Assembly: GCA_018823135.1 (NCBI GenBank) | Contig: JAHJJF010000097.1 | Coordinates: 1,767-65,766, forward strand | Direction of reading: 5' to 3' | Length of the DNA stretch: 64,000 nucleotides | Source: Pseudomonadota bacterium | Lineage (GTDB): Bacteria; Desulfobacterota; Desulfobulbia; Desulfobulbales; CALZHT01 | Part shown: positions 2 through 19,179 of the stretch, piece after piece | How positions within the stretch are numbered: position 1 is the first letter of the stretch | How the letters are laid out: every line of letters starts with the position of its first letter | Program-made: the position numbers and the translations under genes | The notes under the pieces: generated by a model | Database searches by the model: none | Told to the model about the DNA's origin: nothing | What the model saw: the letters and a program-made list of their open reading frames with translations, nothing else

Positions 2-3000
2 GAAATGGATTGCTTTGTTATTGATGCGGCTCATCCGGAATTAAGCTGTCATCCCAGTGAGCCGGATAAAGCATGGACGGAAGAAAACATGTGGCTGTCT
101 GCCATGCCCATGTATAAAAATACCGGCCCGGGAACGGATAGGGCAAATTCACATGTCCGACACATGAATACCGGTTTTTCCTGTGATGATTGCCATAATA
201 ATACCGTTGGCGGTGCCTGTCTTGATTGCCACAAGACAGGAGTTCCGTCAAGCGGTGAGATGGTGAATGACGAAGAATCCCATGTGAGCGGGTTTTATCA
301 TGTAAATAAAACCAAAAATGTAAATTTCAAGAACGGTGGCACGTATTATCGTACGAAAATCGGTGAGCATAAGGCGAAAAGTTGTGCAGGCACCGCTTGT
401 CATGTGGGCGGGCAGGATCCGGTCTGGGGCGGGTCGGTTATAAATGATGTAACCTGCCTCGAATGTCACAGCACTCCGTCAACTGATTTTGATGATTTCG
501 GAGAATTCAATGGCAGCCGTGCCAGGATAAGTTTGCTTGATTGGGTTGAATCCGGCCACGGCAGAAGGGAATTTGATGAAAACGGTGATCCAAATCTGTA
601 CGTCGGATCCGATAACCCGCCGGCAAAATTTCCAACCAACGGTTGCTGGTATTGCCACGACAATAATGTACTGCACGGCAAGGACGACAATCCTTTCCGT
701 CTTCGAAGACACGAACATTTCACCCTGCGCTTTGAAAGGGAATGCGCCTATTGTCATATGCTTGGAAATGACAATGAATGCCTTACCTGCCACAATGATC
801 AATACGACGAATCCATGGCGCCGCAATTAGCTGACATCCCTGCTGATGCTGATTTGGTGATTAATGATCCCCCCTATAAGATTTCACGGCCGAACCATGC
901 GCTTTATGTAAACGGGCAAACCTCATGCTCCGATTCGGTAAATGGTAATTGCCATGAGGCAAACAGTACCCGGCATAAGGTTGAAATGCCCGCCGAGATA
1001 AATAATGCCGAAGAAATTGCCGACATCTCCAATCAGTATGTGATGATGGGGGTCTGCCTGAAATGCCATGATGACGATAGTGGCGGACAATGTCAGACAT
1101 GTCATGAGGGTGATAATTATATTACCGGATTTAAACCTGATATGCCCGGCTTCGGGTTTATTCAACCCGAGATTGCCAAGGCGTCGTCCTTTCATTTTGG
1201 CTACAAGCATTATCAGGCCTATCTGGGAAGTATCAATATAATTGAAAACGCTGTCAACAGCGGCGTTACAGATGAACCTCCTTTTATTAACAATAAGTTC
1301 AGGGATCTTGATTCCGGTTGGGGAATAGATACTTGGAAAGATAATCATTTTGTGGTTATCACCAATGGCCCCAATGTTGATGAAAAAAGAAGAATTAAAT
1401 CAAATACGGCGGATTCCATAATAGTCTATACACCCTTCCCCGATCCCGTGGGACTCAATACAACTTATCAGATACAGGATGTTGCTCAGGTGATAATTGA
1501 TACCGGCACCGTGGATTCATCCCCAGAAATGAATGATTCGCTGAAAGAAGATGACAAAAACTGGGTTGCGAACGCCTGGATCAAACAGTATGACGATTAT
1601 TTTGTTTATTTTAAAAACGGCCTTAATAAAGATCTGAAGCGAAAAATCAAAAGCCATACAAATAATACAATCACCCTGGCGGAAGGCTTTCCGAATAACA
1701 TAATAGCCGGTGATCAATATAAAATTGTCAATCCGGTATGGAAAGGCGGCAAGTTCTGTTGGGATTGTCATGATCCGCACGGGGATTCCAACCCGTATTA
1801 TTCGGAAGGGGTTAATGATCCAAAAGACAAGTTCAATGCCTTTATGGTTCAGACCTGGGTTGCGACGGAATCGGATGGTATCCATGGGAAACCCATACCT
1901 TCTCTACGGAAGAGGGTTGAATTTCTTGATAATGAAGTTGGGTCTAATTATGCAAAGCATGATCCGCCAAACGGAATTTGCAATGTCTGCCACGATGATT
2001 CCTTAGGAAAAACCCAGTACTACAATAAAAGCGGTGGAAGTAATCATAATCCAGGGAAAAGATGTACCCAGTGTCATGAGCACAGGTTCACCGACAGTCA
2101 TGCAGGGAAGGATAAGAACGGCGAGAAGAATACCTGCCATACCTGTCATTCGTCTAAACCTGTTCCAAGACATACCGCTTTCGGTCTGCCCAGGGATTGC
2201 ACCAAATGTCATGACGGTACGATCAAGACCCGGATGAATATCATGGGACAATTCAGGTCCAATTCGCATCATGTCCAAAGAGAAGACGAAAGCATCAGAA
2301 ACACCGATTGTTATCAATGTCACTGGGAAGCAACCGAATTCGGATTAATCAATCTTGAACATCATACCGGCTATAACTACGTAACCCATGAAACCGTGGT
2401 AAATGATCCTGTTGACCTGGTCATCTGGCAGGAAGGTGATTCGCCGACAGTGGGTGAGAGACCAACCGAGTATATTACTACTCCCGGACTTGAAACCGTT
2501 ACAACGTTCAGGGCAACGAATCTCAAAATCAACGATCCTGACCCGGCAGTCGTACTTCAAGCTGAAAGAAAGGAGATTACAAAAATCACGCCTCATTGCA
2601 TCAGTTGCCACAGTGAGCAAAACAGCGAAAATGATGAAGTATTTATCGATGACTGCAAGACTCCCAGTCAATACGCCTGGGATGGATACAGTATTGATGA
2701 AAAATATTCAGAAAAGGGAACTGCAAAATGGGGTAAGTATGCATATCTGCCCAATGCTGCAAAAAAAGATCTGGTTAAAGCCTTTTCAGCACACGGCAAT
2801 GCGGTGAATAATGCCGGGGGCTTCAATGCCATTGACGGCGTGGATTTCAACATCGATAATTCACGGCCGGGAGCCTATGACGTTCAGTGTTTTGATTGTC
2901 ATAATTCCCATGGTTCAAATGTCATAGGGACGACTTCCAGTTATACTTCTCTCAAGGGTCTCAACAACGGCGCAAACTTAAAGGAAACCACGCAGAACAA

Positions 3001-4279
3001 GGGAGGGTATCAAACAACTTATGCCGCTTCCGCCTGGGACGATGAAGCTTCGGTTAGATTTTATAATGCCGGCGCCGGGCAATGCTTTGACTGCCATGAG
3101 TCGCAGCTTGCCAATATTGAAAATGAAAATGGAGACATCCCGCCATGGGGATACGGAACTACATTCGGGGCATTAGCGCCGATTGTCGGCTATAAGGACA
3201 ATAATCGATTTGAAGGATCCTATCCAGGCAAGCTCAATTCCGGCACGGCAATAAGCCGGAACCAGGCTTCAACCTATCTAGCGGATTCAAATGTGTCTTT
3301 TGCCTATAGAGATGCCAAACGTACCCTGGGCGGCCACATGAATGCATCGCACAATAATCCGCTCTCTTCAAATTTTAATCCTGCTGATCCAAGTGCCAAT
3401 GATATACCCACACTTGGCAGGATCAATGGGCTCTGCACACCTTGCCATGATCCCCATGGCGTCAGTCCGACCCTGGGCGATAACATGAAATATGCTGTGC
3501 CATTGCTCAAGGGAACCTGGCTTACTTCGCCGTATCGGGAAGATCATCCAGCACCTGATCCCTATGGACCGCGGTTTTATAAACCGAAAAATACAGGAGA
3601 TCCTACTTACAAGACCTGGGGCTATCCGGCACCGTATTACAGTCAACATTTCGATGTCTACAGGAGAGGATTTGTGCCGGACGACGATGGGATTCCTGAA
3701 AATCGCTACAACCTTGATCGCACCCTTTTTAACGATCCCACCAACGCCACTCAAATCAAGGAGGATGATTCTCAGTTTGCCGGGCTATGTCTCAGGTGCC
3801 ATCCAAAAGAGAATCTGACCAATCCGGCGGTTGAGGAAGACATCTATAACACCGATGAATTCCGGTCAGTTGAACGAATCCACGAGGCGGTGAAAGGCTG
3901 GGGGGGCAATATGAATGAGCATTACTTCTCATGTTCCAAGTGCCACCAGCCTCATGCCTCGGGCCTGCCGAGACTGATGCAGACCAACTGTCTTGATTTT
4001 CAGCATCGTGGCGGGATTCAAACAGGAGGGCTGCCGCAATTCACTAAAGGTTACACTGGCGGCAGGGATACGATGCGGTCTTATGGATTTCCCGTCGCCG
4101 CACTTTTTGGCAACAACCAATCACATTATTACGCCCTGAAGTGTCATGCCGAGGCTGATATATATCAGAATCCCGGTATTGAAGAACCGAAGTCAGATGA
4201 CTGGGATTACGATAGCCCTCCAAAAAATTTCAGGGAGAAACAGCTCTGGAACAACGTGACCATATGGTCTTCGCCCTGA
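2..4279 (+). CDS. Giant multiheme c-type cytochrome, 5' end cut by the window edge
   Basis: The reading frame is open back to position 2 and the visible N-terminus has no signal peptide, so the gene probably starts upstream. There are 20 canonical CXXCH motifs: CDDCH, CLDCH, CLECH, CWYCH, CAYCH, CLTCH, CLKCH, CQTCH, CWDCH, CNVCH, CTQCH, CHTCH, CTKCH, CYQCH, CISCH, CFDCH x2, CTPCH, CLRCH and CSKCH. Variants are a CX4CH (383-403) followed by CLECH, which is the Geobacter CxxxxCH...CXXCH pattern, and a CX7CH (926-955). CxxCH(D/N/Q)(P/S)H(G/A) motifs recur. A heme-free insert lies at about 1140-1745. Confidence 0.9.
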   Translation, partial: EMDCFVIDAAHPELSCHPSEPDKAWTEENMWLSAMPMYKNTGPGTDRANSHVRHMNTGFSCDDCHNNTVGGACLDCHKTGVPSSGEMVNDEESHVSGFYHVNKTKNVNFKNGGTYYRTKIGEHKAKSCAGTACHVGGQDPVWGGSVINDVTCLECHSTPSTDFDDFGEFNGSRARISLLDWVESGHGRREFDENGDPNLYVGSDNPPAKFPTNGCWYCHDNNVLHGKDDNPFRLRRHEHFTLRFERECAYCHMLGNDNECLTCHNDQYDESMAPQLADIPADADLVINDPPYKISRPNHALYVNGQTSCSDSVNGNCHEANSTRHKVEMPAEINNAEEIADISNQYVMMGVCLKCHDDDSGGQCQTCHEGDNYITGFKPDMPGFGFIQPEIAKASSFHFGYKHYQAYLGSINIIENAVNSGVTDEPPFINNKFRDLDSGWGIDTWKDNHFVVITNGPNVDEKRRIKSNTADSIIVYTPFPDPVGLNTTYQIQDVAQVIIDTGTVDSSPEMNDSLKEDDKNWVANAWIKQYDDYFVYFKNGLNKDLKRKIKSHTNNTITLAEGFPNNIIAGDQYKIVNPVWKGGKFCWDCHDPHGDSNPYYSEGVNDPKDKFNAFMVQTWVATESDGIHGKPIPSLRKRVEFLDNEVGSNYAKHDPPNGICNVCHDDSLGKTQYYNKSGGSNHNPGKRCTQCHEHRFTDSHAGKDKNGEKNTCHTCHSSKPVPRHTAFGLPRDCTKCHDGTIKTRMNIMGQFRSNSHHVQREDESIRNTDCYQCHWEATEFGLINLEHHTGYNYVTHETVVNDPVDLVIWQEGDSPTVGERPTEYITTPGLETVTTFRATNLKINDPDPAVVLQAERKEITKITPHCISCHSEQNSENDEVFIDDCKTPSQYAWDGYSIDEKYSEKGTAKWGKYAYLPNAAKKDLVKAFSAHGNAVNNAGGFNAIDGVDFNIDNSRPGAYDVQCFDCHNSHGSNVIGTTSSYTSLKGLNNGANLKETTQNKGGYQTTYAASAWDDEASVRFYNAGAGQCFDCHESQLANIENENGDIPPWGYGTTFGALAPIVGYKDNNRFEGSYPGKLNSGTAISRNQASTYLADSNVSFAYRDAKRTLGGHMNASHNNPLSSNFNPADPSANDIPTLGRINGLCTPCHDPHGVSPTLGDNMKYAVPLLKGTWLTSPYREDHPAPDPYGPRFYKPKNTGDPTYKTWGYPAPYYSQHFDVYRRGFVPDDDGIPENRYNLDRTLFNDPTNATQIKEDDSQFAGLCLRCHPKENLTNPAVEEDIYNTDEFRSVERIHEAVKGWGGNMNEHYFSCSKCHQPHASGLPRLMQTNCLDFQHRGGIQTGGLPQFTKGYTGGRDTMRSYGFPVAALFGNNQSHYYALKCHAEADIYQNPGIEEPKSDDWDYDSPPKNFREKQLWNNVTIWSSP
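1304..1735 (+). repeat. Two tandem ~60-aa non-heme modules (D..W...W...G..R.I.SNT..T.T....FP....Y.I) inside the cytochrome
   Basis: The two translated copies are DLDSGWGIDTWKDNHFVVITNGPNVDEKRRIKSNTADSIIVYTPFPDPVGLNTTYQI and EDDKNWVANAWIKQYDDYFVYFKNGLNKDLKRKIKSHTNNTITLAEGFPNNIIAGDQYKIV. They align with two modules of the neighbouring giant gene (5894-6300). The similarity is at protein level, not DNA level. Confidence 0.7.
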
Positions 4280-7200
4280 TGGCTGAAGCTAAAGAGACTT
4301 TTACTCTATTTGCCGCCGGTAAAACAATAATGAATGGGATGTATTCGATGAGTTCAAAAAAACGCTTCATCAGCAGGTTACCTGTGATCGGGAAATTGTT
4401 TTGTGTAGTTGGGCGATGTTTCACCCGTCGCATGAGCCGGTATTTTTCGGCAATTATCCTCGTTCTTCTCCTGGGATGTTTCCAGAATGCTTCAGGTGAA
4501 GGCGGTGAGGTTCTCAATCGATTCTCTTATCTTTTATCCGGCAAACAGGAAGCTGTTGCCGTGGCTGTTGACACCGACGGTTCCATGGTTATAACCGGCT
4601 ACACACAACCCACGCCTGCTGATAATCAAGATTTTTTCACAATTAAAGTCAATCCGGATACCACCGGTCTGGAAGGTCTTGCCTGGTCTGCGCCCGCCAC
4701 GTTTGATTTGACCGGCGGAGACGATTATGCCGTGGATGTAGTTATTGATCACCAGCATAATATTATTGTCGTCGGCGCTGCATATAACGGCACAAACTTT
4801 GATTTTCAGACGATTAAATACTGTGGAAACAGTATTGATCCGGTCACATTCTGCAAGGGAAAGCAACCTGGGCAGGTGATCTGGCAACATACCTATAATT
4901 ACTCAACAAATGGCAATGATTATCCTGTTCAAGTGGCAGTAGATGTCAATAACAATATATATGTCGGCGGCTATACTCACGGACTCACCGGCAATGATGA
5001 TTTTCTGGTAATTAAATACAGTAAAGACGGGCCAATTGGTAACAAACCATCATTTATACGACCATATAACAATAACACAGCCAACGACCATGATCGGATC
5101 AACTCAATTGCGGTCTCTGCCGGAGAACCAATCTATATTGCGGCAACCGGCATATCCGATAATGATCCGGATATCGTTACTACTGATTTCGACTATCTTA
5201 CTGTTAAATATGATTCTGAACTTAAAGTGCTCTGGGCTAAACTGCATGACGGCGGGTCTGGAGACGATCATGCCCTGGTTGTGAAAATTGATACGGAGAA
5301 TGATGTAATTGTCACCGGTCATATAAGCAATGGGACCGATGATGAGATGTTCACCATAAAATATCTCGGGGAAATCGACCCGCCGCCGATTGACTGGACA
5401 ACAGGCTATGACAGCATGTTTTCTGGCGGGGCTGACAAACCCAATGATATAATCATTGACTCGGCAAATAATGTCTATATTACCGGCACAACATGGACAC
5501 TGGAAGGAGCGACCGATTTTTTCACGGCTAAATATTACGGTGATTCCAGCAATTCTCTGAGAGGCCAACGTGCCTGGCCCGAAGAAATGATTTTTGACTC
5601 GGGCAACGGCAGCGCAGATACAGCGCCTGCCATGGTTATTGATGATAACTCGGTGTATGTCACCGGCTACATGATGAATGCTGCTTCTAACTATGATTTT
5701 CTTACAATAAAATATGATCTGGTTAACGGCAATGAAATCTGGACAAAAATGTTCGATGGCCCGGCAAATGCTGATGATAAATCCGTAGGACTGGGGTTGT
5801 CTGAATCAGGGAAATTTTATGTGGCGGGCTGGTCAAATAAAAGCCCGTCTTTTACAGATGGTCTGGCTTCAAATGCATCAGGATCAACCACGGTAATTGA
5901 AGATTCGACAAAAAACTGGTCAGTAAACCAGTGGGCAGGATTGTCTGTCAAAGTCACCAGCGGAACTAATATTGGAGTCAGTCGGCAAATTGCAAGCAAC
6001 ACCCAAACTTCTTTAACGGTTGCTACGGTGCTTCCGTCTCCGGTTGTGACTGGAGACACCTATTATATTTTTTTTAAGGCTGACAACGCCTCAGCCGGCA
6101 GCACGGACAGGATAATTATTGATACCGATTATAACTGGCCGAATAATTTATTTGCCGGTTATTACGTTTATATTACCAGTGGCACTCATAACGGACTAAG
6201 CCGCCAGATTCAAAGCAACACCAGTAACACCTTAACTCTGGTTACTCCTTTTCCCAATGGCGATCCGGTTGCCGCGGGAGTTTCCTATTATATCCTCGAT
6301 CCCAGTAATTTTGATTTTCAGGCTATTCAATATGATCCCGGAGTAATAAACACCCCAACCAGTTTAAGGCTGAGCCTCATTGGTCAATCCGATACCGACG
6401 TGAAAGTTCAATGGGATATCAACTCGACAAATGAGGACGGATTTCAGGTTTTCAGAAAATTATGCCTGGATCCGTTATATCCGGAAAATCCTCATGCAAC
6501 GGTCGGGCAGGGCGTATCATATTTTGATGACTCCCCGTCAATCTCTCCAGCCCTGGAAGCAGATAAAAAATATTGCTATCAGGTTCGCGCATTCGGTTAT
6601 GACCCCGACGATCTTGAGGAGCCTTATGATATTCTTAATTATTCTCATTTTTCAAATGAAGCGGGAATTCTGACCACAAATATTAAGAATGATGATCCAG
6701 TATGGATTTACAAATATATCGGTCCTGGTGAAGATAAAGCAAATGCCATCGCGGTTGGGCCTGATCTTAATCCGGTTATCACCGGCTACAGTTATTCCAC
6801 CTCAGGCACATTCGATTATTTTACCGCCCGGCTTAATTATACCAACGCCTCGGAGATCTGGACCCATCGCTATGATGATGCATTCAATGAATCTGATGAA
6901 GCACAAAGCATCATTATTGATTCCAATAATAATCCCGTGGTTTCCGGATATTCTTCACTGAGCGGTTCCGGTCCTTCAAACACCTTTGATTTTTATACGG
7001 TTAAATATTATTCCAATTTTAATAATTCGGTCCCGCCAAGGGCTGTTGATTCCGGCAACAAACCGAAATGGAAAGATGCGTATGACGGACCGGGCAACAA
7101 AGATGATCGAGTAACTGCAATTGCCAAGGCAAAAGACGCTTCGGACAATATCGTGATTATCGGTTATGGACGGAATGCAAGCGTAAATGATGATATTTTC

Positions 7201-13200: not shown

Positions 13201-16200
13201 TTTGACGGCACGGCCCTTGATGTGTCAAAATGGCCGGGGCATGCAGGTGAAACAGTATCCGGCGGCGTTGTGACCCTTGATTACCAGACAAACAGCCAGG
13301 CATCCTCTGAAGATTATATATATGCGAGTAATTATAACGTGCCGATTAATACTATTACAGAATTCCGTAATAAATCTTCAGCTACCACCACCCATAATCG
13401 GTTCGGAATAACCGACACAAGAACAACATTCAATCTCAATTCCATCAATTATATTGGATTTCAACTTTACAGCGGCCCCACCATGTATACCGATATCAAT
13501 AACGGCGGCACAAGAACTGAAACCAATCGAGGCGCTTTTGATACCTCATGGCATACGTATAAGCTCGTCTGGACCCCGGCATCAGTTAAATATTATCAGG
13601 ATACAACCCTGATCGGTGAATATACTACCAATATCCCAACTTCCACCGACACTCTGCATCCTTTACTACGTGATCAGTCACAGACTGACTGGGTGAGAGT
13701 TCGAAATTATCTTGTAACCGAACCCACCGTGGGAGTTGGAGTAGAGGAAGTAGCACCTGATCTCTGGGAACCGTTGACATTGACCTCCACGGAGCTTGAT
13801 CTTCCGCCGGCGCAAACCCCTGATGTTATTGAGCCACTCCTGTATTCTCCGGAAGTAGCATTTGCCGGGGCCGGTGGCGAAGTCTGGGAGTGGCGCAAAT
13901 TGTTGACCATCTCCAATTTCAGGACTGATTTCCAGACAAAGATCGTTGTGCAGCATGCTACCGGCATGCGCGCTGATTTCAGTGATGTCCGGTTCTATCA
14001 GTTTGATAATAATACGGAGACCACCGGTCATGACATCGAATACTGGCTGGAAAAGAAAACCGATGGCAGCAGCGCCACCTTCTGGATCAAGACCGGGGCC
14101 TCAAAAGACCGGATATATATGTATTACGGCAATCCCAATGCGGTGAGCACCAGCACCACCAATCCTGGGAATATCTTTCTGTTTTTTGACGATTTTGACG
14201 ATGGGGTCATTGATAATGCCAAATGGCCGACGCAGGTTCTTGGCACCTCGATTTCTGAAAGTATTGATGATGGTGAACTGCGGATGAATCGGGTAACAGG
14301 AAGCACCAGCGCCAATTATATCCAGAGTGCGGCATATACTGCCGCGAACCTGCCGTTGGTTGTTTCGGCAAAGACCCGGACCTTGACTGCGCCGGCAAAT
14401 GGCTGGTCGCCGGTCATGTGGTGGCAATCCACCGGTAATGGCGCAAGCATTCTGGATCAAAACGGCACTGGTGGAGGCAGACAGTATGTAAGAAATTTCG
14501 GGCAGTCTCTGGATATGGGACAGAACAAACCGTTAAGCGAATACCATGTGAACAGTCTGGTGCTGAGTTCTGCAACCGACTGGACCGCAACGACGGAATA
14601 TGTCACGACAACATCGGCAAACTGGTCGGCATATTATAATAATTATACATTCTCAGGCACATATTATATCAAAATCGGTCCGCGTCATGATAATGCTAAT
14701 TACAATCAGGCCATGGATGGGCGTGTCGATTGGGTGCTTGTCCGTAAATATGCGGCCACCGAACCATCGATCAGCTTCGGAACTCCATTCTTTGTCGAAG
14801 CTGTAAGAAGGAAATCTGAATCAAGGGTCAATCTGCAATGGCAATGGAATGATCTGGTGTCTGATGAAACCGGTTTCCAGATCGAACGCTGTATCGGCGT
14901 TAATAGCAACTGTCAGATAATCCCGACCCAGGCAAACAGGTTTTACTATACGGATATATCTATTGAACCCAACACCAATTACTGTTATCGGGTCCGGGCG
15001 GTAAAGAGCGCTTATTGCGGCTGGCATACCGATCCTGCTGATGGATACAGCAATCAGATGTGTGTTGATACCATCTTGAATCCGCCGGTCTTGAACAGTG
15101 TTGCCCCCGTGCCTTTAAGCACCACGGATATGCGTCTTGACTGGACCGAAGGACAGGGCACGGAAGCGGAATCCGGATACCGGTTTTTCAGATGTCTTGA
15201 TAACGGCTCGAGCAATTGCGTCAATGATAATCCGGCCACGAATGCCGATTACCAGAATATCACCGCAACGGCAGGTTTTTCCGGATCGAATATCAATTCC
15301 TGGGTGGATACCACCGCCTGTTCTGATAAAACCTATCAATATGTTGTCGGTTCATTCAGCGCCGACACCACAGGAACGCTGTTCGGCGGCGGCTGGAAAC
15401 ATCGCAGGCAATTGCTGTTCAATAACTCTGCTCGGCCATTTGTGTCGAATCACCACACCCGTCTGGTGGTTTACTATGATGAAACAATGCGCACGGATTT
15501 TAATGATCTGCGCTTCTATGATGAAATCGCCCATGCGCAGATTCCTCACTGGACGGAAAGCACGGTGTCGGGAAATTATGCTGTTGTCTGGCTCAAAACG
15601 GGACAGAATAACGAAATCAGCATGTATTACGGTAATCCATCCGCAGCAAATGGATCAAGCAATCCCAGCACGTTTTTCAAATACTATAACGCCAATATCG
15701 AACAGACCGGGCTGATAAATCAGGACCTGCAAAACGCTGAGGGGTATGTGCTGGAGGCAAATGTTGCCCGAAGAAGCGCGTATTCCTACGGCTGTAATAT
15801 CGTATTCAACCAAACCGGTAACGGCTCAGAGAGATCGTTAATCCAGCATAATCTCAGAAGATACGATTATGATTCTGCCAATACCAGAATAACAGCGAAG
15901 GATTCAACCGCTACGGCAGCAATATCAGATGCGAGAGATGTATTTTATCGATGGATTATTAAAGTATACGATACGGATGGCGACGGAATAAACAGTGATT
16001 GGGAATTTCTTTTTGACAACTATTTGAATAAAGTCAATTTCGGGACCAGTTATTCACCTTTGTCATATACCCACGGCACGATAATTCTGGGCTCAAATGA
16101 TGCTTCCTACAGTCAACGTTGCAGTTATACCAATGTAAAAGTTCGTTCCTATGCCCCAACTGAACCCGACGTCACCTTCGGTGAAGACGAGGCTGCGCCG

Positions 16201-18960
16201 CATAGCGCCTGGGGCCCTGAATACAGTAATTCATTGTCCAACCATACACCGCGCTGGAAGATTCCAACGATTCTTGCCGAGCCTGATTCCAGACTCTTTT
16301 CCGAAGGCCAGATTCTGGTTTCCTGGCGAGATACAAATCCGGATGAAACCCATTTCAATATCTACCGGGGCGATGAGAACTGCCAGAATTTCACGGTTAA
16401 TCCCATCGGTACGGTGCCCGGCACCGGTGTTGATAATGACCTGCATGTTTATCTGGATAAGGGAACTGATATCGATGCGACCTACGGTCTCATTTACAAC
16501 ACGACCTATTGTTACCGGGTGACCGCTGCAAAATCGGTATTCTGTGACTGGGAATCAGAACCCACCGATCCAACGGTGAGCATTACCACCACGATACCGA
16601 AACCGGGGACACCGCAACTTACCCTGTTTGATACCACGACTATCGATCTTGCCTGGGATGATACCACAACAACCGAGGATATCTTCCAGATCTGGCGTTG
16701 TGAAGGGGATCAAGTGACATGTACAGGTATAGATGATCCGGGCCAGCCTTTTGGTGCAAGTCCTGTAATAACCTATTCAGGAAGTGTTCATAAGCCGTCA
16801 AAAGAAAGGCTCTTTAACCGCGACCCCGGAGTCTGCCCAGGTCACACCTATACCTATATCATCAGGGCGGTCAGAAGCGGTCATTGGAATACGGACAGCG
16901 ATCCTGCCGGCATTCAGACTAATGATGAAATCGTCCCGGCAAACCTTTCTCTTGTCGAGGTCTATGATCCAAATTTTAATCAGCGGCGCATAGATCTTCG
17001 CTGGTCGGACACCAACTCGGATGAATCCGGATTTTACATTGAACGATGCAAGGTAACGGTTGACGAGGATTGTGATGCTGCTACCGGCAATTATACCTCG
17101 GTAAATTCCTATTCAAATTACTTTGATACCTTTGACACTGTCGATGCTAATTTCTGGAATGGATATATTCTGCTGCCGGTGGAAAATGCCGTTCCTCCAA
17201 CTCCCTGGACCGCGATTACTCTGCCCAAGACGCAGCGTAACGACATCTCCGGATTGGTATCCATGGAACATAAAGACCAGCGGATTATCATGAAGGCCAC
17301 CTCCACTGATAACAATGATGGATACACCAACCTGACCGGCTATAATCAAACATTCATGGGAATGGATTATCCCTGGTATCTGGGAATCTATGATATTGAC
17401 GTGAGTTTTGACTGGGAAATGCTTGATGTTGCCTACTCCTACATAACAGACGGCCAGATAGTCCATTTTAATATGGACGATGCAGTCTGGGCGGCTGCAG
17501 GAGATGTGAAAGACAGTTCGCATACCGGCAATCAAGGAACTGCCAATGCTGGTGCAACCCAGGTTGCCGGCGGTTATGACGGAACCGGCAAAGCCGCATC
17601 ATTTAATGGATCAAACAATATATCGTGGAATTATGCAGGAGGCACTCCCCAGACTAATTTCACCATTGCCGCCTGGGTCAAGGCAACCGAGGGGCATCAG
17701 ATTGACGATCCGCAGAGTAATACCGGGACCCTGGGCACCGCCGGGCAGAAGTATCTCTTTGATGCCCAGTTTTATGCCACAGGTGCTGGCCTGGGGGTTT
17801 CCGTGGGTATCGATGGTATATCCGTATATGCCCATGGTTCCGGGTATCTGCCGCCACTGGCTGTGTACAGCGGCGCTCTCGGTACGGATTGGCACCATAT
17901 CGCAATTGTTGTGGCAAACCGCATACCGTCAATTTACCTTGATGGCAATCTGGTGAGAACCGGCCTGCAATCCACAAAATCCCCTTTGTATGCGCCTCAG
18001 AGAATAGCTGCCAATGCATACGGCAATTTCAAAGGCCAGGTTGATGATGTTAAGGTTTTCAATAGAAATCTCACCGCAGATGAGATCAAGCAGCTCCATC
18101 ATCCTGAAAATTCATCCACCACCCAATATCCTCTCCGTTTATACGTTCATTTTGTTTCCGGCGACTATATAATTATAGATCGTGCGGTTGATTTCAACAC
18201 CGGCGGGTTTTTCTGGTGGAGAATTAACACCAACGGGATTGATCATGACGGAGCGGAGGCTACACGGTTTACTTCGGGAAAATTCAGAATGACCCGCCAG
18301 GGCACGAACCTTTCTCTCTATGTCTGGAAGGATAATGCCTGGTACCTGCTGATGACCCGAACCGATGCCAATGAAGGCGATGTCGCCAATGCATTTGAAA
18401 TACATCAGTATGCAAAAAGAGATGGAATTATCTCCATGACCACGGCTATCGATAATTTCAAAATGAATAATAATGCGATGCCGAACCTCACCTATTCCGA
18501 TACAGATGCCCTTGATCCACTCAGCACCTATTATTACCGGGTCCGGCCGTTTAAAACCCATCCGGGCGGATGTTCGGAATGGAATGCCTGGGATAATGTT
18601 CAGTTGCCGTCTTCGAGTGAATTGACCAACCTCGCCGCTCCTGCAAACCTTTTTGCCAGCCCTGACGGTTCGAAAAAGATGCTTTTGAGCTGGGACAGCA
18701 ATGTGGAAGGTGAAACAGGTTATTTAATTGAACGAAAGCTGTTTAACGGTGTGTTCAAGGAGATCGGCACAGCTGGCCAGGATGTTACAAGCTATATTGA
18801 CCGGGTCGGCCTTAGTGCAGATACGCAATATACCTATAGAATCCGGGCCGTTAATGATGTTGATATTGTTTATTCGCCTTACAGCAATGAGTACAGCGCG
18901 ACAACAAACATTCATGGAGCGCAATGGGTTGATAATTCCACCTGCCTGCCCGATGAATAG
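4264..18960 (+). CDS. Giant (about 4,900 aa) secreted/lipoprotein-like surface protein with 2 SBBP beta-propellers, at least 15 FN3-like modules, 3 LamG_3-like lectin domains and 4 DUF2341 modules
   Basis: This is a single uninterrupted 14.7-kb ORF. Candidate starts are 4264, 4279 (TGATG overlap with the cytochrome stop), 4348 and 4432. The signal is MSRYFSAIILVLLLGC, with a lipobox-like LLGC at Cys72 (4477-4479). Two blocks of 8 SBBP-type repeats lie at about 4552-5845(+6300-6330) and 6691-8100; each repeat has the form ..D..GN.Y.TGY....DF.T.KY. FN3-like modules have the pattern W.D....E.GF..ERC...C....Y.D......Y.YRV.A. LamG_3-like domains lie at about 8932-9592, 11899-12490 and 17461-18100, with the patterns VH.K....W..VDSSGN.H.G and F.G.ID.V.IYNRAL...EI. 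DUF2341-like modules lie at about 10704-10970, 12918-13155, 13885-14142 and 15394-15646, with the pattern W..RK.L.......DF.D.RFY......IPYW.E......VW.K......I.MYYGNP. I recognised no catalytic motif. Confidence 0.9.
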   Translation: MVFALMAEAKETFTLFAAGKTIMNGMYSMSSKKRFISRLPVIGKLFCVVGRCFTRRMSRYFSAIILVLLLGCFQNASGEGGEVLNRFSYLLSGKQEAVAVAVDTDGSMVITGYTQPTPADNQDFFTIKVNPDTTGLEGLAWSAPATFDLTGGDDYAVDVVIDHQHNIIVVGAAYNGTNFDFQTIKYCGNSIDPVTFCKGKQPGQVIWQHTYNYSTNGNDYPVQVAVDVNNNIYVGGYTHGLTGNDDFLVIKYSKDGPIGNKPSFIRPYNNNTANDHDRINSIAVSAGEPIYIAATGISDNDPDIVTTDFDYLTVKYDSELKVLWAKLHDGGSGDDHALVVKIDTENDVIVTGHISNGTDDEMFTIKYLGEIDPPPIDWTTGYDSMFSGGADKPNDIIIDSANNVYITGTTWTLEGATDFFTAKYYGDSSNSLRGQRAWPEEMIFDSGNGSADTAPAMVIDDNSVYVTGYMMNAASNYDFLTIKYDLVNGNEIWTKMFDGPANADDKSVGLGLSESGKFYVAGWSNKSPSFTDGLASNASGSTTVIEDSTKNWSVNQWAGLSVKVTSGTNIGVSRQIASNTQTSLTVATVLPSPVVTGDTYYIFFKADNASAGSTDRIIIDTDYNWPNNLFAGYYVYITSGTHNGLSRQIQSNTSNTLTLVTPFPNGDPVAAGVSYYILDPSNFDFQAIQYDPGVINTPTSLRLSLIGQSDTDVKVQWDINSTNEDGFQVFRKLCLDPLYPENPHATVGQGVSYFDDSPSISPALEADKKYCYQVRAFGYDPDDLEEPYDILNYSHFSNEAGILTTNIKNDDPVWIYKYIGPGEDKANAIAVGPDLNPVITGYSYSTSGTFDYFTARLNYTNASEIWTHRYDDAFNESDEAQSIIIDSNNNPVVSGYSSLSGSGPSNTFDFYTVKYYSNFNNSVPPRAVDSGNKPKWKDAYDGPGNKDDRVTAIAKAKDASDNIVIIGYGRNASVNDDIFLIKYLANGTRAWATVDHPEYALQVWDVAGLDDKPVAVVFDYNGDILIAGRAKHAHAATHGNTDFDIVVRKYSGVDGTPMWSVVYDSAFGDDEGADIAVDTLNNVYVTGYVSTESQGEDIFLTKYCGNSDPENNCGAGLVQGDEIWARPYTGSGAGDDFGVGVAVDISDEVEEVVVGGTTFIGAGNNDFFVMRYDLDGNNVWNIPRILDRQATNDSVVSMKMDVSGNVYLGGNTNDSGSSDILAVIYDYVGEWKGGTIYDGLSSNDDGAKSVAVSRVGNAYVAGYTHNGSNYDYVAIEFIGEILQAPAPFTLTAYYTYVDLNWANNTLEDGIGDGYNLERQNVDCNTAKLGGAWTLVSGDTIPLAQTSYRDTGLTIEDTYCYRIQTVCDNGEMSRWIYRTIDTVHPPAPDALSASIDDSTTVTLTWIDTIADEDSYAVQRCDQSLYNCLDPAPDDDSPVDARYEVLIDSLPPGTHTYTDPTACSGKTYTYRIQGALNGFWTSYFVYLVDVQATPFATPTVVSAIAQSEGRIDLTWTDTNTDETSFKIYRCLGLGCDPDQDGALLPVDLTGSNIPAGSIVHMKMNESWSPGVADMVVDSSGNNHHGTAYGNASGGFFDGVDDYVSLGDIDALDAPAALSVEIWFKKTGEMGSATNHLVNNVLIAQSSDAANDNLEIGIQGNSIEFYLDTEQERNFNVRVESGTAADTGITLEPDTWYHLVLTYDKDAADGNETKLYFQGALLGQWNTGGGYLTSSDTSPLTIGMARPDGSNWGDFKGAINQLTIYDHAITLAEVQNSYANGLPAIPTFYSDFPLNPNAHYNYEVMAYKIAAGSPECPTGWETDPDLGGTAGDESADIFTPGVPNAPTNISVTTNAVDRTSRIDITWNDNTEFEEGFILERCVGGLAVCTPAAFVLDPVFGVSGVGVTLAMEAETYSDTTVCNNTEYTYRVKAIRPSDPSWLSGSAYTEPYDSDATNTINNPTGLSASYVNEEEIRLTWTDNSIDETGFKFQRCTGVGCTFSASDPFILVPAHPGTGVVTFNDIRRTPNESYTYQVQAYKSSTCNWSTGFSNPFTITTNIAGSITLDTQTVNTTRSYLHWNDIRTKETTMFVERCTGASCVNFAQIYGVDAIDDTLQANFYYDDTTLCPAETYKYRVKGVDQDFENGMGGCWTKRKQMTISQFQPESLVEVKINYLTGMQADFDDLRFYKFNDYNSTGRNGEVIPYMLIKKVNNSYAKVLLKTPANGNDIYMYYGNASAIAVDKQVFIARYFTFYHDFPGSTEDTTNIWDIARSGSDYGEVWQDNGLYFQKVNVSWEALVSKQTFARNVQDLTMYVRMYYRGGGEWYFGFQKNQGATTNTDAFAHGVYMGFGAATAIREGTGSYSLTPAISVDSTFGVEYDFKITANKNGGATYYLKGGEGTSKYYADWTLLKDTTGSFAPKISNTPLKISLLQYTSFLMIYDVSLTNYGLYKSDVVLADMPDDPCFVMPHEWDTAYSPIMTVVAGSKVTPSLLDGNAISESEMELTVSDANLAESGFDIQYCQGDIATLECQNQGDFTYLATIGSSPLVHLKFDNDFTNSENNTYHGSAENSVPFNGGGKFGSAAAFDSTGYVSLGTPQGLKLYKDNAFTLEGWFRPSVNVQNMIDLYPLFIFKRNYLHGGYGSHFSKSNGKINVQYCWEGSCLGVSSTTVFMANTWYHYAGTFDGTTLKLYINGVLEGSLAATIPMGSSEGYRLTIGENFEGLIDDVAIYNRALSSAEILDHMNKGVGTRYVHTGLELSTPYTYQIRANKVATHLETCTDDWPTAYSAKMTAKTDEPPAPINFRFTVPNTTQINLQWDDKAGSNSGYVLEREVYNSSVWNFVASLEGDVGSFNDSQVCKNTQYNYRLRLIYESFEMADKFDNTGAGEWRRKKPLTFQNFAANHATKVIITRDDYIRTDFGDIRFYDETTGTKIPYWIESISGNTAVVWFKPGVNNTISLYYDNPGATSESSGPGTFLFFDNFDGTALDVSKWPGHAGETVSGGVVTLDYQTNSQASSEDYIYASNYNVPINTITEFRNKSSATTTHNRFGITDTRTTFNLNSINYIGFQLYSGPTMYTDINNGGTRTETNRGAFDTSWHTYKLVWTPASVKYYQDTTLIGEYTTNIPTSTDTLHPLLRDQSQTDWVRVRNYLVTEPTVGVGVEEVAPDLWEPLTLTSTELDLPPAQTPDVIEPLLYSPEVAFAGAGGEVWEWRKLLTISNFRTDFQTKIVVQHATGMRADFSDVRFYQFDNNTETTGHDIEYWLEKKTDGSSATFWIKTGASKDRIYMYYGNPNAVSTSTTNPGNIFLFFDDFDDGVIDNAKWPTQVLGTSISESIDDGELRMNRVTGSTSANYIQSAAYTAANLPLVVSAKTRTLTAPANGWSPVMWWQSTGNGASILDQNGTGGGRQYVRNFGQSLDMGQNKPLSEYHVNSLVLSSATDWTATTEYVTTTSANWSAYYNNYTFSGTYYIKIGPRHDNANYNQAMDGRVDWVLVRKYAATEPSISFGTPFFVEAVRRKSESRVNLQWQWNDLVSDETGFQIERCIGVNSNCQIIPTQANRFYYTDISIEPNTNYCYRVRAVKSAYCGWHTDPADGYSNQMCVDTILNPPVLNSVAPVPLSTTDMRLDWTEGQGTEAESGYRFFRCLDNGSSNCVNDNPATNADYQNITATAGFSGSNINSWVDTTACSDKTYQYVVGSFSADTTGTLFGGGWKHRRQLLFNNSARPFVSNHHTRLVVYYDETMRTDFNDLRFYDEIAHAQIPHWTESTVSGNYAVVWLKTGQNNEISMYYGNPSAANGSSNPSTFFKYYNANIEQTGLINQDLQNAEGYVLEANVARRSAYSYGCNIVFNQTGNGSERSLIQHNLRRYDYDSANTRITAKDSTATAAISDARDVFYRWIIKVYDTDGDGINSDWEFLFDNYLNKVNFGTSYSPLSYTHGTIILGSNDASYSQRCSYTNVKVRSYAPTEPDVTFGEDEAAPHSAWGPEYSNSLSNHTPRWKIPTILAEPDSRLFSEGQILVSWRDTNPDETHFNIYRGDENCQNFTVNPIGTVPGTGVDNDLHVYLDKGTDIDATYGLIYNTTYCYRVTAAKSVFCDWESEPTDPTVSITTTIPKPGTPQLTLFDTTTIDLAWDDTTTTEDIFQIWRCEGDQVTCTGIDDPGQPFGASPVITYSGSVHKPSKERLFNRDPGVCPGHTYTYIIRAVRSGHWNTDSDPAGIQTNDEIVPANLSLVEVYDPNFNQRRIDLRWSDTNSDESGFYIERCKVTVDEDCDAATGNYTSVNSYSNYFDTFDTVDANFWNGYILLPVENAVPPTPWTAITLPKTQRNDISGLVSMEHKDQRIIMKATSTDNNDGYTNLTGYNQTFMGMDYPWYLGIYDIDVSFDWEMLDVAYSYITDGQIVHFNMDDAVWAAAGDVKDSSHTGNQGTANAGATQVAGGYDGTGKAASFNGSNNISWNYAGGTPQTNFTIAAWVKATEGHQIDDPQSNTGTLGTAGQKYLFDAQFYATGAGLGVSVGIDGISVYAHGSGYLPPLAVYSGALGTDWHHIAIVVANRIPSIYLDGNLVRTGLQSTKSPLYAPQRIAANAYGNFKGQVDDVKVFNRNLTADEIKQLHHPENSSTTQYPLRLYVHFVSGDYIIIDRAVDFNTGGFFWWRINTNGIDHDGAEATRFTSGKFRMTRQGTNLSLYVWKDNAWYLLMTRTDANEGDVANAFEIHQYAKRDGIISMTTAIDNFKMNNNAMPNLTYSDTDALDPLSTYYYRVRPFKTHPGGCSEWNAWDNVQLPSSSELTNLAAPANLFASPDGSKKMLLSWDSNVEGETGYLIERKLFNGVFKEIGTAGQDVTSYIDRVGLSADTQYTYRIRAVNDVDIVYSPYSNEYSATTNIHGAQWVDNSTCLPDE
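5894..6300 (+). repeat. Two tandem copies of the same ~60-aa module found in the cytochrome, inserted into the last repeat of propeller 1
   Basis: The two copies are IEDSTKNWSVNQWAGLSVKVTSGTNIGVSRQIASNTQTSLTVATVLPSPVVTGDTYYIF and IIDTDYNWPNNLFAGYYVYITSGTHNGLSRQIQSNTSNTLTLVTPFPNGDPVAAGVSYYIL. They sit between FYVAGWSNKS and the closing strand NFDFQAIQY of the eighth SBBP repeat. Confidence 0.7.
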
Positions 18961-18993
18961 GCTGGGGTGCAAATAAAATATCAAACCGTAAAA

Positions 18994-19030: not shown

Positions 19031-19179
19031 CGATAAATTCATACATGTCATTCCAAAGGATTCCGGCTTTTTTCATTATAATTCGTGTTTTTATATGCAA
19101 AAAGACAGTTTGGATTGTTTGTATTTTCGTGATCACAAGTATATAGTGCGGATGGTTTTTAATTGGTGAGGAGGCATCC

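What the first reader, a model, noticed from the sequence alone, without database searches (positions are those of the whole stretch)
2..18960. Tandem giant genes: a 20-heme cytochrome of more than 1,400 aa abutting a 4,898-aa propeller/lectin/FN3 lipoprotein, a candidate cell-surface electron-transfer and attachment apparatus
Seen in sequence:
- The cytochrome ORF is still open at the window edge.
- Its TGA (4277-4279) shares a base with an in-frame ATG (4279-4281) of the next ORF, a TGATG junction. Other possible starts are 4264, 4348 and 4432.
- The next ORF runs 14.7 kb without a stop.
- It carries a lipoprotein-type signal (AIILVLLLGC).
- It contains only binding or scaffold modules (2 x 8 SBBP repeats, at least 15 FN3-like, 3 LamG_3-like, 4 DUF2341-like) and no catalytic motif I can recognise.
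- A strong terminator follows at 18994-19030, so the two genes look like one transcription unit.

Established knowledge: very large multiheme cytochromes on the cell surface mediate extracellular electron transfer in Geobacter-type bacteria and ANME archaea. The CX4CH...CXXCH pairing seen at 383-470 is the Geobacter-type motif.

Inference: the pair encodes an outer-surface electron conduit together with a giant mineral-, partner-cell- or polymer-binding scaffold. I know of no described system with this composition.
Basis: partly seen in the sequence, partly recalled or inferred. Interest (0 to 1): 0.85.

Follow-up and report, generated by a model that had tools for sequence, protein, structure and literature searches.

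The report
Conserved giant cytochrome plus surface-scaffold gene pair
The two giant genes are real, and they are one instance of a widespread but functionally unstudied two-gene cassette of metal-respiring bacteria, in which a roughly 33-heme cytochrome gene is always followed by a huge propeller/FN3 surface-type protein gene, so the pair is not unique to this genome.

Summary
A multiheme cytochrome ORF runs off the window edge and stops at 4277-4279. The window holds 20 CxxCH and 1 CxxxxCH motif; the full protein, MBU1710419.1, is 1,959 aa with 33 motifs. A stop-free ORF follows to 18960. It carries a lipobox, two SBBP propellers, 15-17 FN3-like domains, 3 Laminin_G_3 and 4 DUF2341, then a strong terminator.

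The pair is not unique. All 44 related loci with upstream DNA have a CxxCH-bearing ORF directly upstream on the same strand; 40 are intact pairs with 31-55 heme motifs. All 5 cytochrome homologues I looked up have the partner directly downstream. These include Geobacter metallireducens (very probably Gmet_2470/Gmet_2469), Geotalea daltonii and Geobacter sp. DSM 9736. Partners range from about 2,000 to 5,069 aa, several with the same architecture. The two families co-diverge (Mantel r = 0.86).

Functional coupling is therefore well supported. Surface location, an electron-transfer role and attachment remain inference. I found no paper describing the cassette.

A roughly 65-aa BR0599-like beta module occurs in both proteins but is a common repeat. 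Two downstream genes, one CarboxypepD_reg and one NosD-like, recur near the pair in about half of informative loci.

Verdict: a member of a widespread, uncharacterised cassette, of moderate interest.

The parts
2..4279 (+). C-terminal 1,425 aa of a 1,959-aa multiheme c-type cytochrome (MBU1710419.1). It belongs to the PF09698 CxxxxCH...CxxCH family. The window part holds 20 CxxCH and 1 CxxxxCH motif.
383..469 (+). CxxxxCH (CAGTACH, nt 383-403) paired with CxxCH (CLECH, nt 455-469). This is the signature of the Geobacter-type family.
   Evidence: PF09698 is precomputed for P0001
1286..1738 (+). Tandem pair of a ~65-aa BR0599-like beta module inserted in the cytochrome (aa 429-494 and 511-579).
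4264..4434 (+). Junction region. It contains the TGA at 4277-4279 and in-frame candidate starts at 4264, 4279 (TGATG), 4348 (the NCBI choice) and 4432 (which gives a textbook 15-aa lipoprotein signal).
   Evidence: overlapping starts are common in homologous loci
4348..18960 (+). Giant partner gene of 4,870 aa (MBU1710420.1, annotated 'DUF2341 domain-containing protein').
4348..4479 (+). Long N-terminal signal region ending in the lipobox LLLGC (Cys44).
   Evidence: read from the sequence; no signal-peptide predictor was available
4510..5862 (+). SBBP beta-propeller 1, with 7-8 blades.
5884..6303 (+). Tandem pair of the BR0599-like module. It is 33% identical over 148 aa to the pair in the cytochrome.
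6688..8133 (+). SBBP beta-propeller 2. It is preceded by one FN3-like domain at nt 6349-6597.
8116..12870 (+). Middle region. In order it holds: FN3 x3; Laminin_G_3 no. 1 (nt 9046-9579); FN3 x3; DUF2341 no. 1 (nt 10795-11061) with a ConA-like extension; FN3; Laminin_G_3 no. 2 (nt 12016-12474); FN3.
13009..15684 (+). DUF2341 no. 2 (nt 13009-13233), DUF2341 no. 3 (about nt 13960-14202), FN3 x2, and DUF2341 no. 4 (nt 15496-15684). Each DUF2341 is followed by a ConA/GH16-like region with no catalytic motif.
16264..18960 (+). C-terminal region: FN3 x3, Laminin_G_3 no. 3 (nt 17608-18090), FN3 x2, and a tail ending ...NSTCLPDE. Homologues end in ...TCP.
18990..19035 (+). Intrinsic terminator: a 17-bp stem followed by a run of nine T.
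19180..21324 (+). Downstream DUF7948 + SBBP protein of 714 aa (MBU1710421.1). It may belong to the same neighbourhood; I did not find it conserved elsewhere.
21496..22389 (+). CarboxypepD_reg-domain secreted protein of 297 aa. A homologue lies downstream of the pair in 11 of 29 informative loci.
24097..25080 (+). NosD-like beta-helix protein of 327 aa. A homologue lies downstream of the pair in 10 of 29 informative loci.

Best explanation
The two genes form a conserved, co-transcribed cassette. Gene 1 encodes a Sec-exported cytochrome of about 33 hemes, which would act as a long single-chain heme wire. Gene 2 encodes a very large modular, non-redox protein. Its invariant core is two N-terminal SBBP beta-propellers, followed by an FN3 stalk and lineage-variable binding modules (Laminin_G_3, DUF2341 with a ConA-like extension, BR0599-like barrels).

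The most likely mechanism is as follows. The partner is exported and, in this organism, lipid-anchored through Cys44. Its conserved twin propellers hold or position the cytochrome. The FN3 stalk and variable lectin-like modules project from the cell and bind an extracellular target such as a mineral surface, matrix polymer or partner cell. Electrons from the periplasm or outer membrane could then be passed over tens of nanometres.

What is shown: gene adjacency, conservation, co-divergence, domain content, and the absence of a terminator between the genes.

What is inferred: the physical complex, the surface location, the direction and acceptor of electron flow, and the binding targets.
For: Synteny starting from the partner:
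- All 44 of 44 related GTDB loci that have upstream DNA carry a CxxCH-bearing ORF directly upstream on the same strand.
- 40 of these are intact pairs, with cytochromes of 1,500-2,600 aa and 31-55 heme motifs.
- Gaps between the genes range from -113 to +99 nt.

Synteny starting from the cytochrome:
- All 5 of 5 homologues I looked up have the partner immediately downstream, often overlapping by 7 nt.
- Two further pairs were recovered by looking up partner homologues.

Co-divergence:
- Several genomes hold 2-3 paralogous pairs.
- The distance matrices of the two families correlate across 40 pairs (Mantel r = 0.858; 0 of 2,000 permutations reached it).

Transcription unit:
- There is no terminator between the genes, and the strongest terminator in 20 kb lies right after gene 2.

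Export and domain content:
- Homologous cytochromes have cleavable Sec signals.
- The partner has a signal and a lipobox.
- The partner contains only propeller, FN3, lectin-like and beta-barrel modules.

Expression in a model organism:
- Gmet_2470 is 5.7-fold higher in DIET co-culture with G. sulfurreducens than with M. barkeri (PMC10989804).

Precedent:
- Beta-propeller (NHL) genes sit next to outer-surface cytochrome genes, for example GSU2505 next to omcS and DFE_0451/0463 in Desulfovibrio ferrophilus (PMC9070056, PMC9769857).
Against: - No localisation, interaction or phenotype data exist for any member.
- The signals prove only export across the inner membrane. No porin, type II secretion or other outer-membrane translocation gene lies next to the pair in the window.
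- Most partner homologues lack the lipobox, so lipid anchoring is not a family trait.
- The module shared by the two proteins is a widespread generic repeat (8,990 representative proteins). It is not evidence of a specific contact.
- Mantel correlation is expected for any two genes inherited together, so it shows joint inheritance and not interaction.
- The only solved SBBP-type propeller, CylK, is an enzyme, so a catalytic role for the propellers is not excluded.
- Synteny was sampled through one peptide pattern and a handful of look-ups, not through an exhaustive census.
Confidence: 0.55

Rival explanations
1. The proteins are co-expressed but physically independent. The partner would be a general adhesin or biofilm-matrix protein, made at the same time as the cytochrome because both are needed when the cell grows on surfaces. 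There would be no specific complex.
For: - The partner's C-terminal decoration varies greatly between lineages: DUF2341 0-6 copies, Laminin_G_3 0-3, BR0599-like module 0-7, and size 2,000-5,069 aa. This is typical of adhesins under diversifying selection.
- FN3, LamG and propeller arrays are common in adhesins.
- The downstream CarboxypepD_reg and beta-helix genes also look like matrix or surface proteins.
Against: - Adjacency is essentially invariant in both directions, with frequent start/stop overlap. It persists through repeated paralogous duplications.
- The N-terminal twin propellers are conserved in every partner while the rest varies.
- Both points suggest a constant, cytochrome-related function for the core.
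Confidence: 0.2
2. The partner is an export, assembly or tethering factor for the cytochrome rather than an adhesin. The twin propellers would chaperone or dock the very long heme protein at the outer membrane. This is the role proposed for the NHL protein GSU2505 next to omcS.
For: - There is precedent for beta-propeller genes next to outer-surface cytochromes, with a proposed assembly or expression role (PMC9070056).
- The propeller core is conserved.
- Both families have conserved extreme C-termini: '...TCP' for the partner and '...WNNVTPW' for the cytochrome. These could be recognition signals.
Against: - A chaperone or tether does not need 2,000-5,000 aa of FN3 and lectin-like modules.
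- No similarity to known secretion or assembly factors was found.
Confidence: 0.12
3. The cytochrome is periplasmic, acting as an electron store or a link between respiratory complexes, and the cassette has nothing to do with extracellular electron transfer.
For: - Only Sec signals are seen in homologues.
- The localisation column of the G. metallireducens table lists Gmet_2470 as 'Unknown'.
- The G. soli homologue of OmcN, a large Geobacter cytochrome whose relation to this family I did not test, is predicted to be periplasmic (PMC6013743).
- No porin gene is adjacent.
Against: - A chain of more than 30 hemes is longer than the periplasm is wide. PMC11492766 makes this argument for a 27-heme cluster, citing 350 versus 170 Angstrom.
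- The obligatory partner is built from domain types typical of cell-surface or extracellular proteins.
- Gmet_2470 is more highly expressed in DIET co-culture with G. sulfurreducens than with Methanosarcina partners.
Confidence: 0.08
4. The SBBP propellers are catalytic. The partner would be a giant extracellular enzyme whose substrate or cofactor turnover is coupled to the cytochrome.
For: The best structural match of propeller 1 is the Friedel-Crafts alkylating enzyme CylK (E = 6e-21, TM 0.61). Other propeller hits include lyases and tetrathionate hydrolase.
Against: - Identity to CylK is only 19%, and CylK is simply the only solved SBBP-type propeller.
- No enzyme family was hit by sequence.
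- I did not check the catalytic residues.
Confidence: 0.05

Closest known systems
[quoted passage not shown]
   Same: - The cytochrome is in the same PF09698 family (47% identity over 54% of the query; 27 CxxCH + 6 CxxxxCH).
- It is overlapped by 7 nt by a 3,507-aa protein with two SBBP propellers, fn3, four DUF2341 hits and Laminin_G_3.
- Gene order and strand are the same.
   Different: - The partner is shorter (3,507 versus 4,870 aa), and my HMM found no BR0599-like module in the 2,756 aa I could read.
- The cytochrome lacks the tandem module insert.
- The locus-tag assignment rests on coordinates, heme count and the neighbouring annotation. I did not see the tags in the record.
- Neither protein has been characterised beyond transcript levels.
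Geotalea daltonii FRC-32 pairs ('cytochrome c, 37 heme-binding sites' and 'fibronectin type III repeat protein') and the roughly 2,000-aa class of partners
   Same: - Two separate cytochrome + SBBP/FN3 pairs occur in one genome.
- Each has the same order, a tight junction and the twin-propeller core.
   Different: The partners are about 2,030-2,070 aa. They consist of propellers and FN3 only, without DUF2341 or Laminin_G_3.
NHL beta-propeller genes next to outer-surface cytochrome genes (GSU2505 downstream of omcS; DFE_0451 and DFE_0463 in Desulfovibrio ferrophilus)
   Same: The theme is the same: a secreted beta-propeller protein is encoded beside an extracellular multiheme cytochrome and is proposed to help its assembly or function.
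   Different: - The propeller family differs (NHL versus SBBP).
- The proteins are small, without an FN3 or lectin stalk.
- The cytochromes are small (4-14 hemes) and unrelated in sequence.
Porin-cytochrome conduits (MtrCAB; Geobacter OmaB/OmbB/OmcB and Pcc clusters)
   Same: Both are multiheme cytochromes proposed to carry electrons beyond the outer membrane in the same group of organisms.
   Different: - There is no porin gene and no periplasmic 8-10-heme partner gene next to the pair in the window.
- There is one very large cytochrome in place of two small ones.
- The partner has no redox motifs.
Cytochrome nanowires (OmcS, OmcE, OmcZ) and giant ANME/Methanoperedens multiheme cytochromes fused to S-layer-type domains
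   Same: The shared idea is long-range electron transfer along closely packed hemes outside the cell. In the archaeal case a huge cytochrome is joined to surface-scaffold domains.
   Different: - Nanowires are polymers of 4-8-heme subunits. Here a single chain carries about 33 hemes.
- There is no sequence match to any solved structure.
- In the archaeal proteins the scaffold domains are fused to the cytochrome. Here they sit in a separate, adjacent gene. This comparison rests on my own knowledge and was not tested.

Membership tests
PF09698 / TIGR01904-type 'CxxxxCH...CxxCH' large multiheme cytochromes of Geobacter and relatives | Many CxxCH heme-binding motifs, including paired CxxxxCH ... 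CxxCH units | tested here: met
   The window part has 20 CxxCH and 1 CxxxxCH. P0001 has 31 + 2. PF09698 is precomputed for P0001, and NCBI names it 'CxxxxCH/CxxCH domain-containing protein'. My own Pfam scan of the window part alone listed only Cytochrome_C7 and c3_2.
PF09698 / TIGR01904-type 'CxxxxCH...CxxCH' large multiheme cytochromes of Geobacter and relatives | Full-length sequence homology to named members | tested here: met
   227 hits were found. Identity is 43-58% over 54-99% of the query to proteins from G. metallireducens, G. daltonii, Geobacter sp. DSM 9736, Desulfobulbaceae and Nitrospirae, all with E = 0 or below 1e-280. About 250 columns are invariant across 34 sequences.
PF09698 / TIGR01904-type 'CxxxxCH...CxxCH' large multiheme cytochromes of Geobacter and relatives | N-terminal Sec signal peptide (exported protein) | not testable with these tools
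   The N-terminus lies outside the window. P0001 starts at MSIDAPHN, which is the position just after the signal peptide in homologues. The contig's 5' end could not be fetched.
PF09698 / TIGR01904-type 'CxxxxCH...CxxCH' large multiheme cytochromes of Geobacter and relatives | Covalent heme attachment and redox activity | not testable with these tools
   This needs heme staining, mass spectrometry or spectroscopy.
Cytochrome-associated SBBP/FN3 partner proteins (Gmet_2469-type; named here, with no published family name) | Two N-terminal SBBP beta-propellers after a long signal region | tested here: met
   My own propeller HMM hits twice in the window protein and at least twice in every partner examined. 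See also Pfam SBBP and the AlphaFold model.
Cytochrome-associated SBBP/FN3 partner proteins (Gmet_2469-type; named here, with no published family name) | Encoded immediately downstream of a large PF09698 cytochrome on the same strand | tested here: met
   This holds in the window, in 44 of 44 informative GTDB loci and in all 7 look-ups.
Cytochrome-associated SBBP/FN3 partner proteins (Gmet_2469-type; named here, with no published family name) | Array of FN3 domains after the propellers | tested here: met
   15-17 FN3-like copies.
Cytochrome-associated SBBP/FN3 partner proteins (Gmet_2469-type; named here, with no published family name) | Conserved extreme C-terminus '...TCP' | tested here: inconclusive
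   Most homologues end in TCP. The window protein ends ...NSTCLPDE, so the Cys is kept but the end is extended.
Bacterial lipoproteins | Signal peptide with a lipobox [LVI][ASTVI][GAS]C | tested here: inconclusive
   LLLGC fits the PROSITE-type lipobox rule as I recall it. The start at 4432 gives a canonical 15-aa signal. No LipoP or SignalP was available. Most homologues instead have an AFA|AGGD signal-peptidase-I site and no Cys.
Porin-cytochrome conduits (Pcc/Mtr) | Adjacent genes for an outer-membrane porin-like beta-barrel and a periplasmic 8-10-heme cytochrome | tested here: not met
   No such genes flank the pair. The only beta-barrels in the window are TonB-dependent receptors 31 kb or more away.
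Cytochrome nanowire subunits (OmcS/OmcE/OmcZ) | Sequence or fold relationship to the 4-8-heme filament subunits | tested here: not met
   phmmer of P0001 against all PDB chains gave no hit at E <= 0.01.
Phage_BR0599 (PF09356) domain | Match above the Pfam gathering score | tested here: met
   The cytochrome scores 25.1 bits and the giant-protein segment 31.5 bits, against a cut-off of 22.9. The fold is a small beta barrel with only weak matches to phage tail and tailspike N-domains. The match concerns a domain, not a phage function.

The most novel reading that the evidence does not exclude
The cassette could be an unrecognised, widespread extracellular machine of metal-respiring Desulfobacterota and Nitrospirota. 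In this reading the invariant twin propellers of the partner dock a single-chain 30-55-heme wire. The FN3 stalk carries it tens of nanometres from the cell. The fast-evolving lectin-like modules (Laminin_G_3, DUF2341/ConA-like, BR0599-like barrels) select the target, whether mineral, humic or polysaccharide matrix, or a partner cell. It would then be a third architecture for long-range electron transfer, alongside porin-cytochrome conduits and polymerised nanowires. It would also explain what the largest cytochrome in each Geobacter genome is for.
Probability: 0.3. Interest if true: 0.75.

Novelty: new variant of a known kind. Interest (0 to 1): 0.5.

Why it matters
The largest cytochromes of Geobacter-type bacteria (31-55 hemes) have no assigned role. 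This analysis shows that they come, almost without exception, with a dedicated giant propeller/FN3 partner that is inherited and duplicated together with them.

That turns a single odd-looking locus into a general hypothesis that can be tested genetically. The same pair exists in tractable model organisms such as G. metallireducens (very probably Gmet_2470/2469) and G. daltonii. If the partner anchors or targets the cytochrome, it would add a new structural solution for moving electrons beyond the cell.

The window instance itself adds little beyond being one of the largest versions, from an uncultured Desulfobacterota lineage.

Tried and rejected
- **Contig look-ups for the closest cytochromes.** Looking up P0001 and P0002 gave 'not on record'. 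The cytochrome's 5' end and the neighbours of its closest relative therefore could not be read.
- **Homologue search with the whole 4,870-aa protein.** It timed out. I repeated it with the first 1,261 aa.
- **The window's own genome.** It was not among the GTDB loci returned.
- **The shared BR0599-like module as a specific link.** I first took it as a possible specific link between the two proteins. I rejected this because it occurs in 66 of 120 cytochrome homologues and in some partners, but also in about 9,000 representative proteins of many kinds, mostly unannotated.
- **Fold search of the module.** It gave only weak phage-tail, KOW-like and ubiquitin-E1 (Uba1) domain matches, none at E <= 0.001. 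No function follows from it.
- **PDB sequence search.** There was nothing for the cytochrome and only an engineered FN3 for the partner.
- **Rfam.** There were no riboswitches or other RNA families in the window or in six Geobacter loci, so no GEMM-type regulation was detected.
- **Equating the cytochrome with OmcN.** I considered this and did not adopt it. Gmet_0581 is labelled omcN, but G. sulfurreducens OmcN homologues are reported with about 24 heme sites, and I did not test orthology.
- **Literature searches.** I searched for FN3, SBBP, DUF2341, NHL, CxxxxCH, OmcN and Gmet_2470 together with Geobacter or cytochrome. No paper in the held library describes the pair.
- **Assembly artefact.** Rejected.
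Full report
**1. The observation**

The window begins inside an ORF in frame 2 that stays open to the TGA at 4277-4279.

- Its 1,425 window-encoded residues carry 20 CxxCH motifs and one CxxxxCH. The CxxxxCH is CAGTACH at nt 383-403 and is followed by CLECH at nt 455-469.
- Two longer motifs, CX11CH at aa 4-17 and CX7CH at aa 309-318, are conserved across the family alignment (the first invariant). They may bind further hemes.
- The full protein is in NCBI as MBU1710419.1. It is 1,959 aa, carries 31 CxxCH and 2 CxxxxCH, and is named 'CxxxxCH/CxxCH domain-containing protein'.

The next ORF has in-frame ATGs at 4264, 4279 (sharing its A with the TGA), 4348 and 4432. It has no stop until 18960.

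- NCBI annotates the 4348 start, giving 4,870 aa (MBU1710420.1, 'DUF2341 domain-containing protein').
- The identical protein is present in a second MAG record.
- There are no near-identical DNA repeats, so the ORF is not an assembly artefact.

Pfam on the whole protein and on ten segments confirms SBBP repeats in two blocks, three Laminin_G_3, four DUF2341 and fn3.

- An iterated in-house HMM finds 15 solid and 2 partial FN3-like copies.
- No ExDxxE (GH16) motif is present.
- An AlphaFold model of the first SBBP block is a closed propeller of 7-8 blades (pLDDT 84, pTM 0.87). Its best PDB match is the SBBP-type propeller of CylK.
- The lipobox LLLGC is there, with Cys44 counted from 4348.

The terminator at 18990-19026 has a 17-bp stem followed by nine T (-24.7 kcal/mol, z = -5.1). 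It is the strongest in the first 20 kb, and nothing terminator-like separates the two genes.

**2. What it is**

The cytochrome belongs to a large family with 227 hits at 43-58% identity. It includes 'cytochrome c, 37 heme-binding sites' of Geotalea daltonii and proteins from G. metallireducens, Geobacter sp. DSM 9736, Desulfobulbaceae and Nitrospirae.

The first 1,261 aa of the giant protein find a family of proteins of about 2,000 aa and upward with SBBP and FN3 domains, from the same organisms.

Synteny holds in both directions.

- Look-ups starting from the partner show a PF09698 cytochrome directly upstream in G. daltonii and in a JGI contig.
- A scan of GTDB genomes with the partner alignment returned 48 clear relatives. 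These come from Geobacteraceae, Desulfuromonadales, Desulfobulbia, other Thermodesulfobacteriota, Nitrospirae, and MAGs labelled Polyangia or Gammaproteobacteria.
- In all 44 loci with upstream DNA, a CxxCH-bearing ORF ends at the start of the partner ORF on the same strand. Of these, 40 are intact pairs with 1,500-2,600-aa cytochromes carrying 31-55 motifs. Junctions range from -113 to +99 nt.
- Nine distant SBBP proteins of about 440-1,040 aa from other phyla have no such neighbour.
- In the reverse direction, five cytochromes looked up by identity all have the partner immediately downstream: G. metallireducens (3,507 aa, 7-nt overlap), G. daltonii (2,066 aa), Geobacter sp. DSM 9736 (4,034 aa), a Thermodesulfobacteriota MAG (3,999 aa) and an ENA contig (5,069 aa).
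- The ENA contig also shares the window's ValRS, HD and ABC-F neighbours, so it comes from a related organism.
- Several genomes hold two or three pairs.
- Distances among cytochromes and among partners correlate across 40 pairs (Mantel r = 0.858; 0 of 2,000 permutations reached it). The pair is inherited and duplicated as a unit.

Every partner keeps two N-terminal propellers, while the remainder varies. DUF2341 ranges from 0 to 6 copies, Laminin_G_3 from 0 to 3, and a roughly 65-aa module from 0 to 7. The window's architecture recurs in G. metallireducens, Geobacter sp. DSM 9736, a Desulfuromonadaceae MAG and others.

**3. Further features**

*Shared module.* The two window proteins share a tandem pair of a roughly 65-aa module, 33% identical over 148 aa (E = 1e-14).

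- It passes the Pfam threshold for Phage_BR0599 in both proteins.
- It folds as small beta barrels (pLDDT 87) with only weak phage-tail-like matches.
- It is present in 66 of 120 cytochrome homologues and in some partners.
- It also occurs in about 9,000 representative proteins of all kinds. I therefore treat it as a generic extracellular repeat and not as a specific link.

*Signals and termini.*

- Cytochrome homologues with complete N-termini have ordinary Sec signal peptides. P0001 starts exactly where the mature protein would, so its signal is probably cut off by the contig end.
- Partner homologues have long signal regions that mostly end in AFA|AGGD. The window protein instead has the lipobox.
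- Partners end in a conserved '...TCP' and cytochromes in '...WNNVTPW'.

*Extended neighbourhood.* The window's CarboxypepD_reg protein (21496-22389) and NosD-like beta-helix protein (24097-25080) have homologues downstream of the pair in 14 of 29 informative loci. The functional neighbourhood may therefore extend beyond the terminator.

*Host organism.* The host is an uncultured member of the Desulfobacterota. Its ValRS is 72-76% identical to Desulfobacterales and Desulfobulbales MAGs.

**4. Mechanism**

*Shown:* a conserved, co-oriented, tightly abutting and co-diverging gene pair; an exported multiheme protein family; and a partner made only of propeller, FN3, lectin-like and beta-barrel modules.

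*Inferred:* the partner's constant twin propellers hold or position the cytochrome. The stalk and variable modules reach and bind an external target, so the pair works in extracellular electron transfer and attachment.

*Indirect support:*
- Gmet_2470 and Gmet_2469 are both expressed, and Gmet_2470 is higher in DIET co-culture with G. sulfurreducens than with Methanosarcina partners (PMC10989804).
- NHL propeller genes lie beside outer-surface cytochrome genes in other species.
- A chain of about 30 hemes exceeds the width of the periplasm (PMC11492766).

*Against:* no localisation or interaction data exist, no adjacent outer-membrane translocation genes were found, and the lipobox is not a family trait.

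*Rivals:* independent co-expressed adhesin; assembly or tethering factor; periplasmic cytochrome; catalytic propeller.

**5. Comparison and novelty**

The closest relative is the G. metallireducens pair. I assign it to Gmet_2470/2469 from its coordinates, its 33 motifs against the annotated 34 hemes, and the neighbouring 'Fibronectin, type III' annotation.

The cassette is not a porin-cytochrome conduit, because no porin or small periplasmic cytochrome gene is adjacent. It is not a nanowire subunit, because nothing in the PDB matches by sequence.

I found no paper in the held library that describes the pairing. That library lacks most subscription-journal papers, so this is not proof of absence.

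The window instance is one more member, and one of the largest, of a widespread cassette that is catalogued in genomes but functionally uncharacterised. Relative to characterised systems it is a new variant of the theme 'extracellular cytochrome plus accessory surface protein'.

**6. Verdict**

Functional coupling is supported, the surface, electron-transfer and attachment roles are unproven, and the claim of uniqueness is wrong.
- Interest is moderate at 0.5. The value lies in a general hypothesis, testable in model organisms, about the largest Geobacter-type cytochromes, rather than in this locus.

Noticed in passing
window 21496-22389 and 24097-25080; also L023 15375-18435, L043 10869-13926, L037 13435-16313: A CarboxypepD_reg-domain protein and a NosD-like beta-helix protein recur downstream of the cytochrome-partner pair. 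In other genomes the beta-helix is often fused to CarboxypepD_reg domains in a ~670-aa protein. One or both are present in 14 of 29 informative loci. The conserved neighbourhood may be larger than two genes.
   Followed up: partly
window 18901-18957 (C-terminus of the giant protein); partner homologues P0122-P0148: Nearly all partner homologues end in an extreme C-terminal '...TCP'. The window protein ends ...NSTCLPDE. The cytochromes end in a conserved '...QLWNNVTPW'. These could be sorting or recognition signals; their meaning is unexplained.
   Followed up: no
window 11-52 (CX11CH) and 926-955 (CX7CH); also lone invariant Cys at P0001 positions 1419 and 1864, and C1915-H1916: Non-canonical Cys...Cys-His motifs and lone cysteines are conserved (most invariant) across 34 cytochrome homologues. 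They may be extra heme sites, or disulfide or single-Cys attachment sites.
   Followed up: no
window 1286-1738 and 5884-6303: A ~65-aa BR0599-like beta-barrel module is poorly covered by Pfam (only 10 of 52 strong carriers hit PF09356). It is present in about 9,000 representative proteins, in arrays of up to 12 copies. It would merit its own family definition.
   Followed up: partly
window 29408-30886 (-) and 32215-33540 (+): Two further multiheme cytochrome genes lie in the window. One is 492 aa with 5 CxxCH and a Cytochrome_C554-like domain. The other is 441 aa with 6 CxxCH and weak MtrC/F-domain and cbb3-type hits. The organism is therefore cytochrome-rich in this region.
   Followed up: no
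window 19180-21324: A third SBBP protein (DUF7948 + SBBP, 714 aa, with a signal peptide) is encoded right after the terminator. No homologue was found in the related loci.
   Followed up: partly
L064 6468-8893 and L065 6579-8960: In two relatives the cytochrome is preceded on the same strand by an NHL-repeat protein. In one of them a 371-aa multiheme cytochrome is also present. The upstream side of the window's own cytochrome is unknown.
   Followed up: no
window 47111-63602: This stretch holds a CHASE8/PAS hybrid histidine kinase with a YfiR-like gene, two TonB-dependent receptors, ExbB/TonB genes, Fe-S proteins, a 2-hydroxyglutaryl-CoA-dehydratase-type pair with its activator, and a Fic protein. 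They are ordinary accessory genes with no evident link to the pair.
   Followed up: no
L065 (ENA contig k141_266274) 14473-23385: A relative that shares the window's ValRS, HD and ABC-F neighbours encodes an even larger partner of 5,069 aa. Partner length appears to change quickly between related genomes.
   Followed up: no
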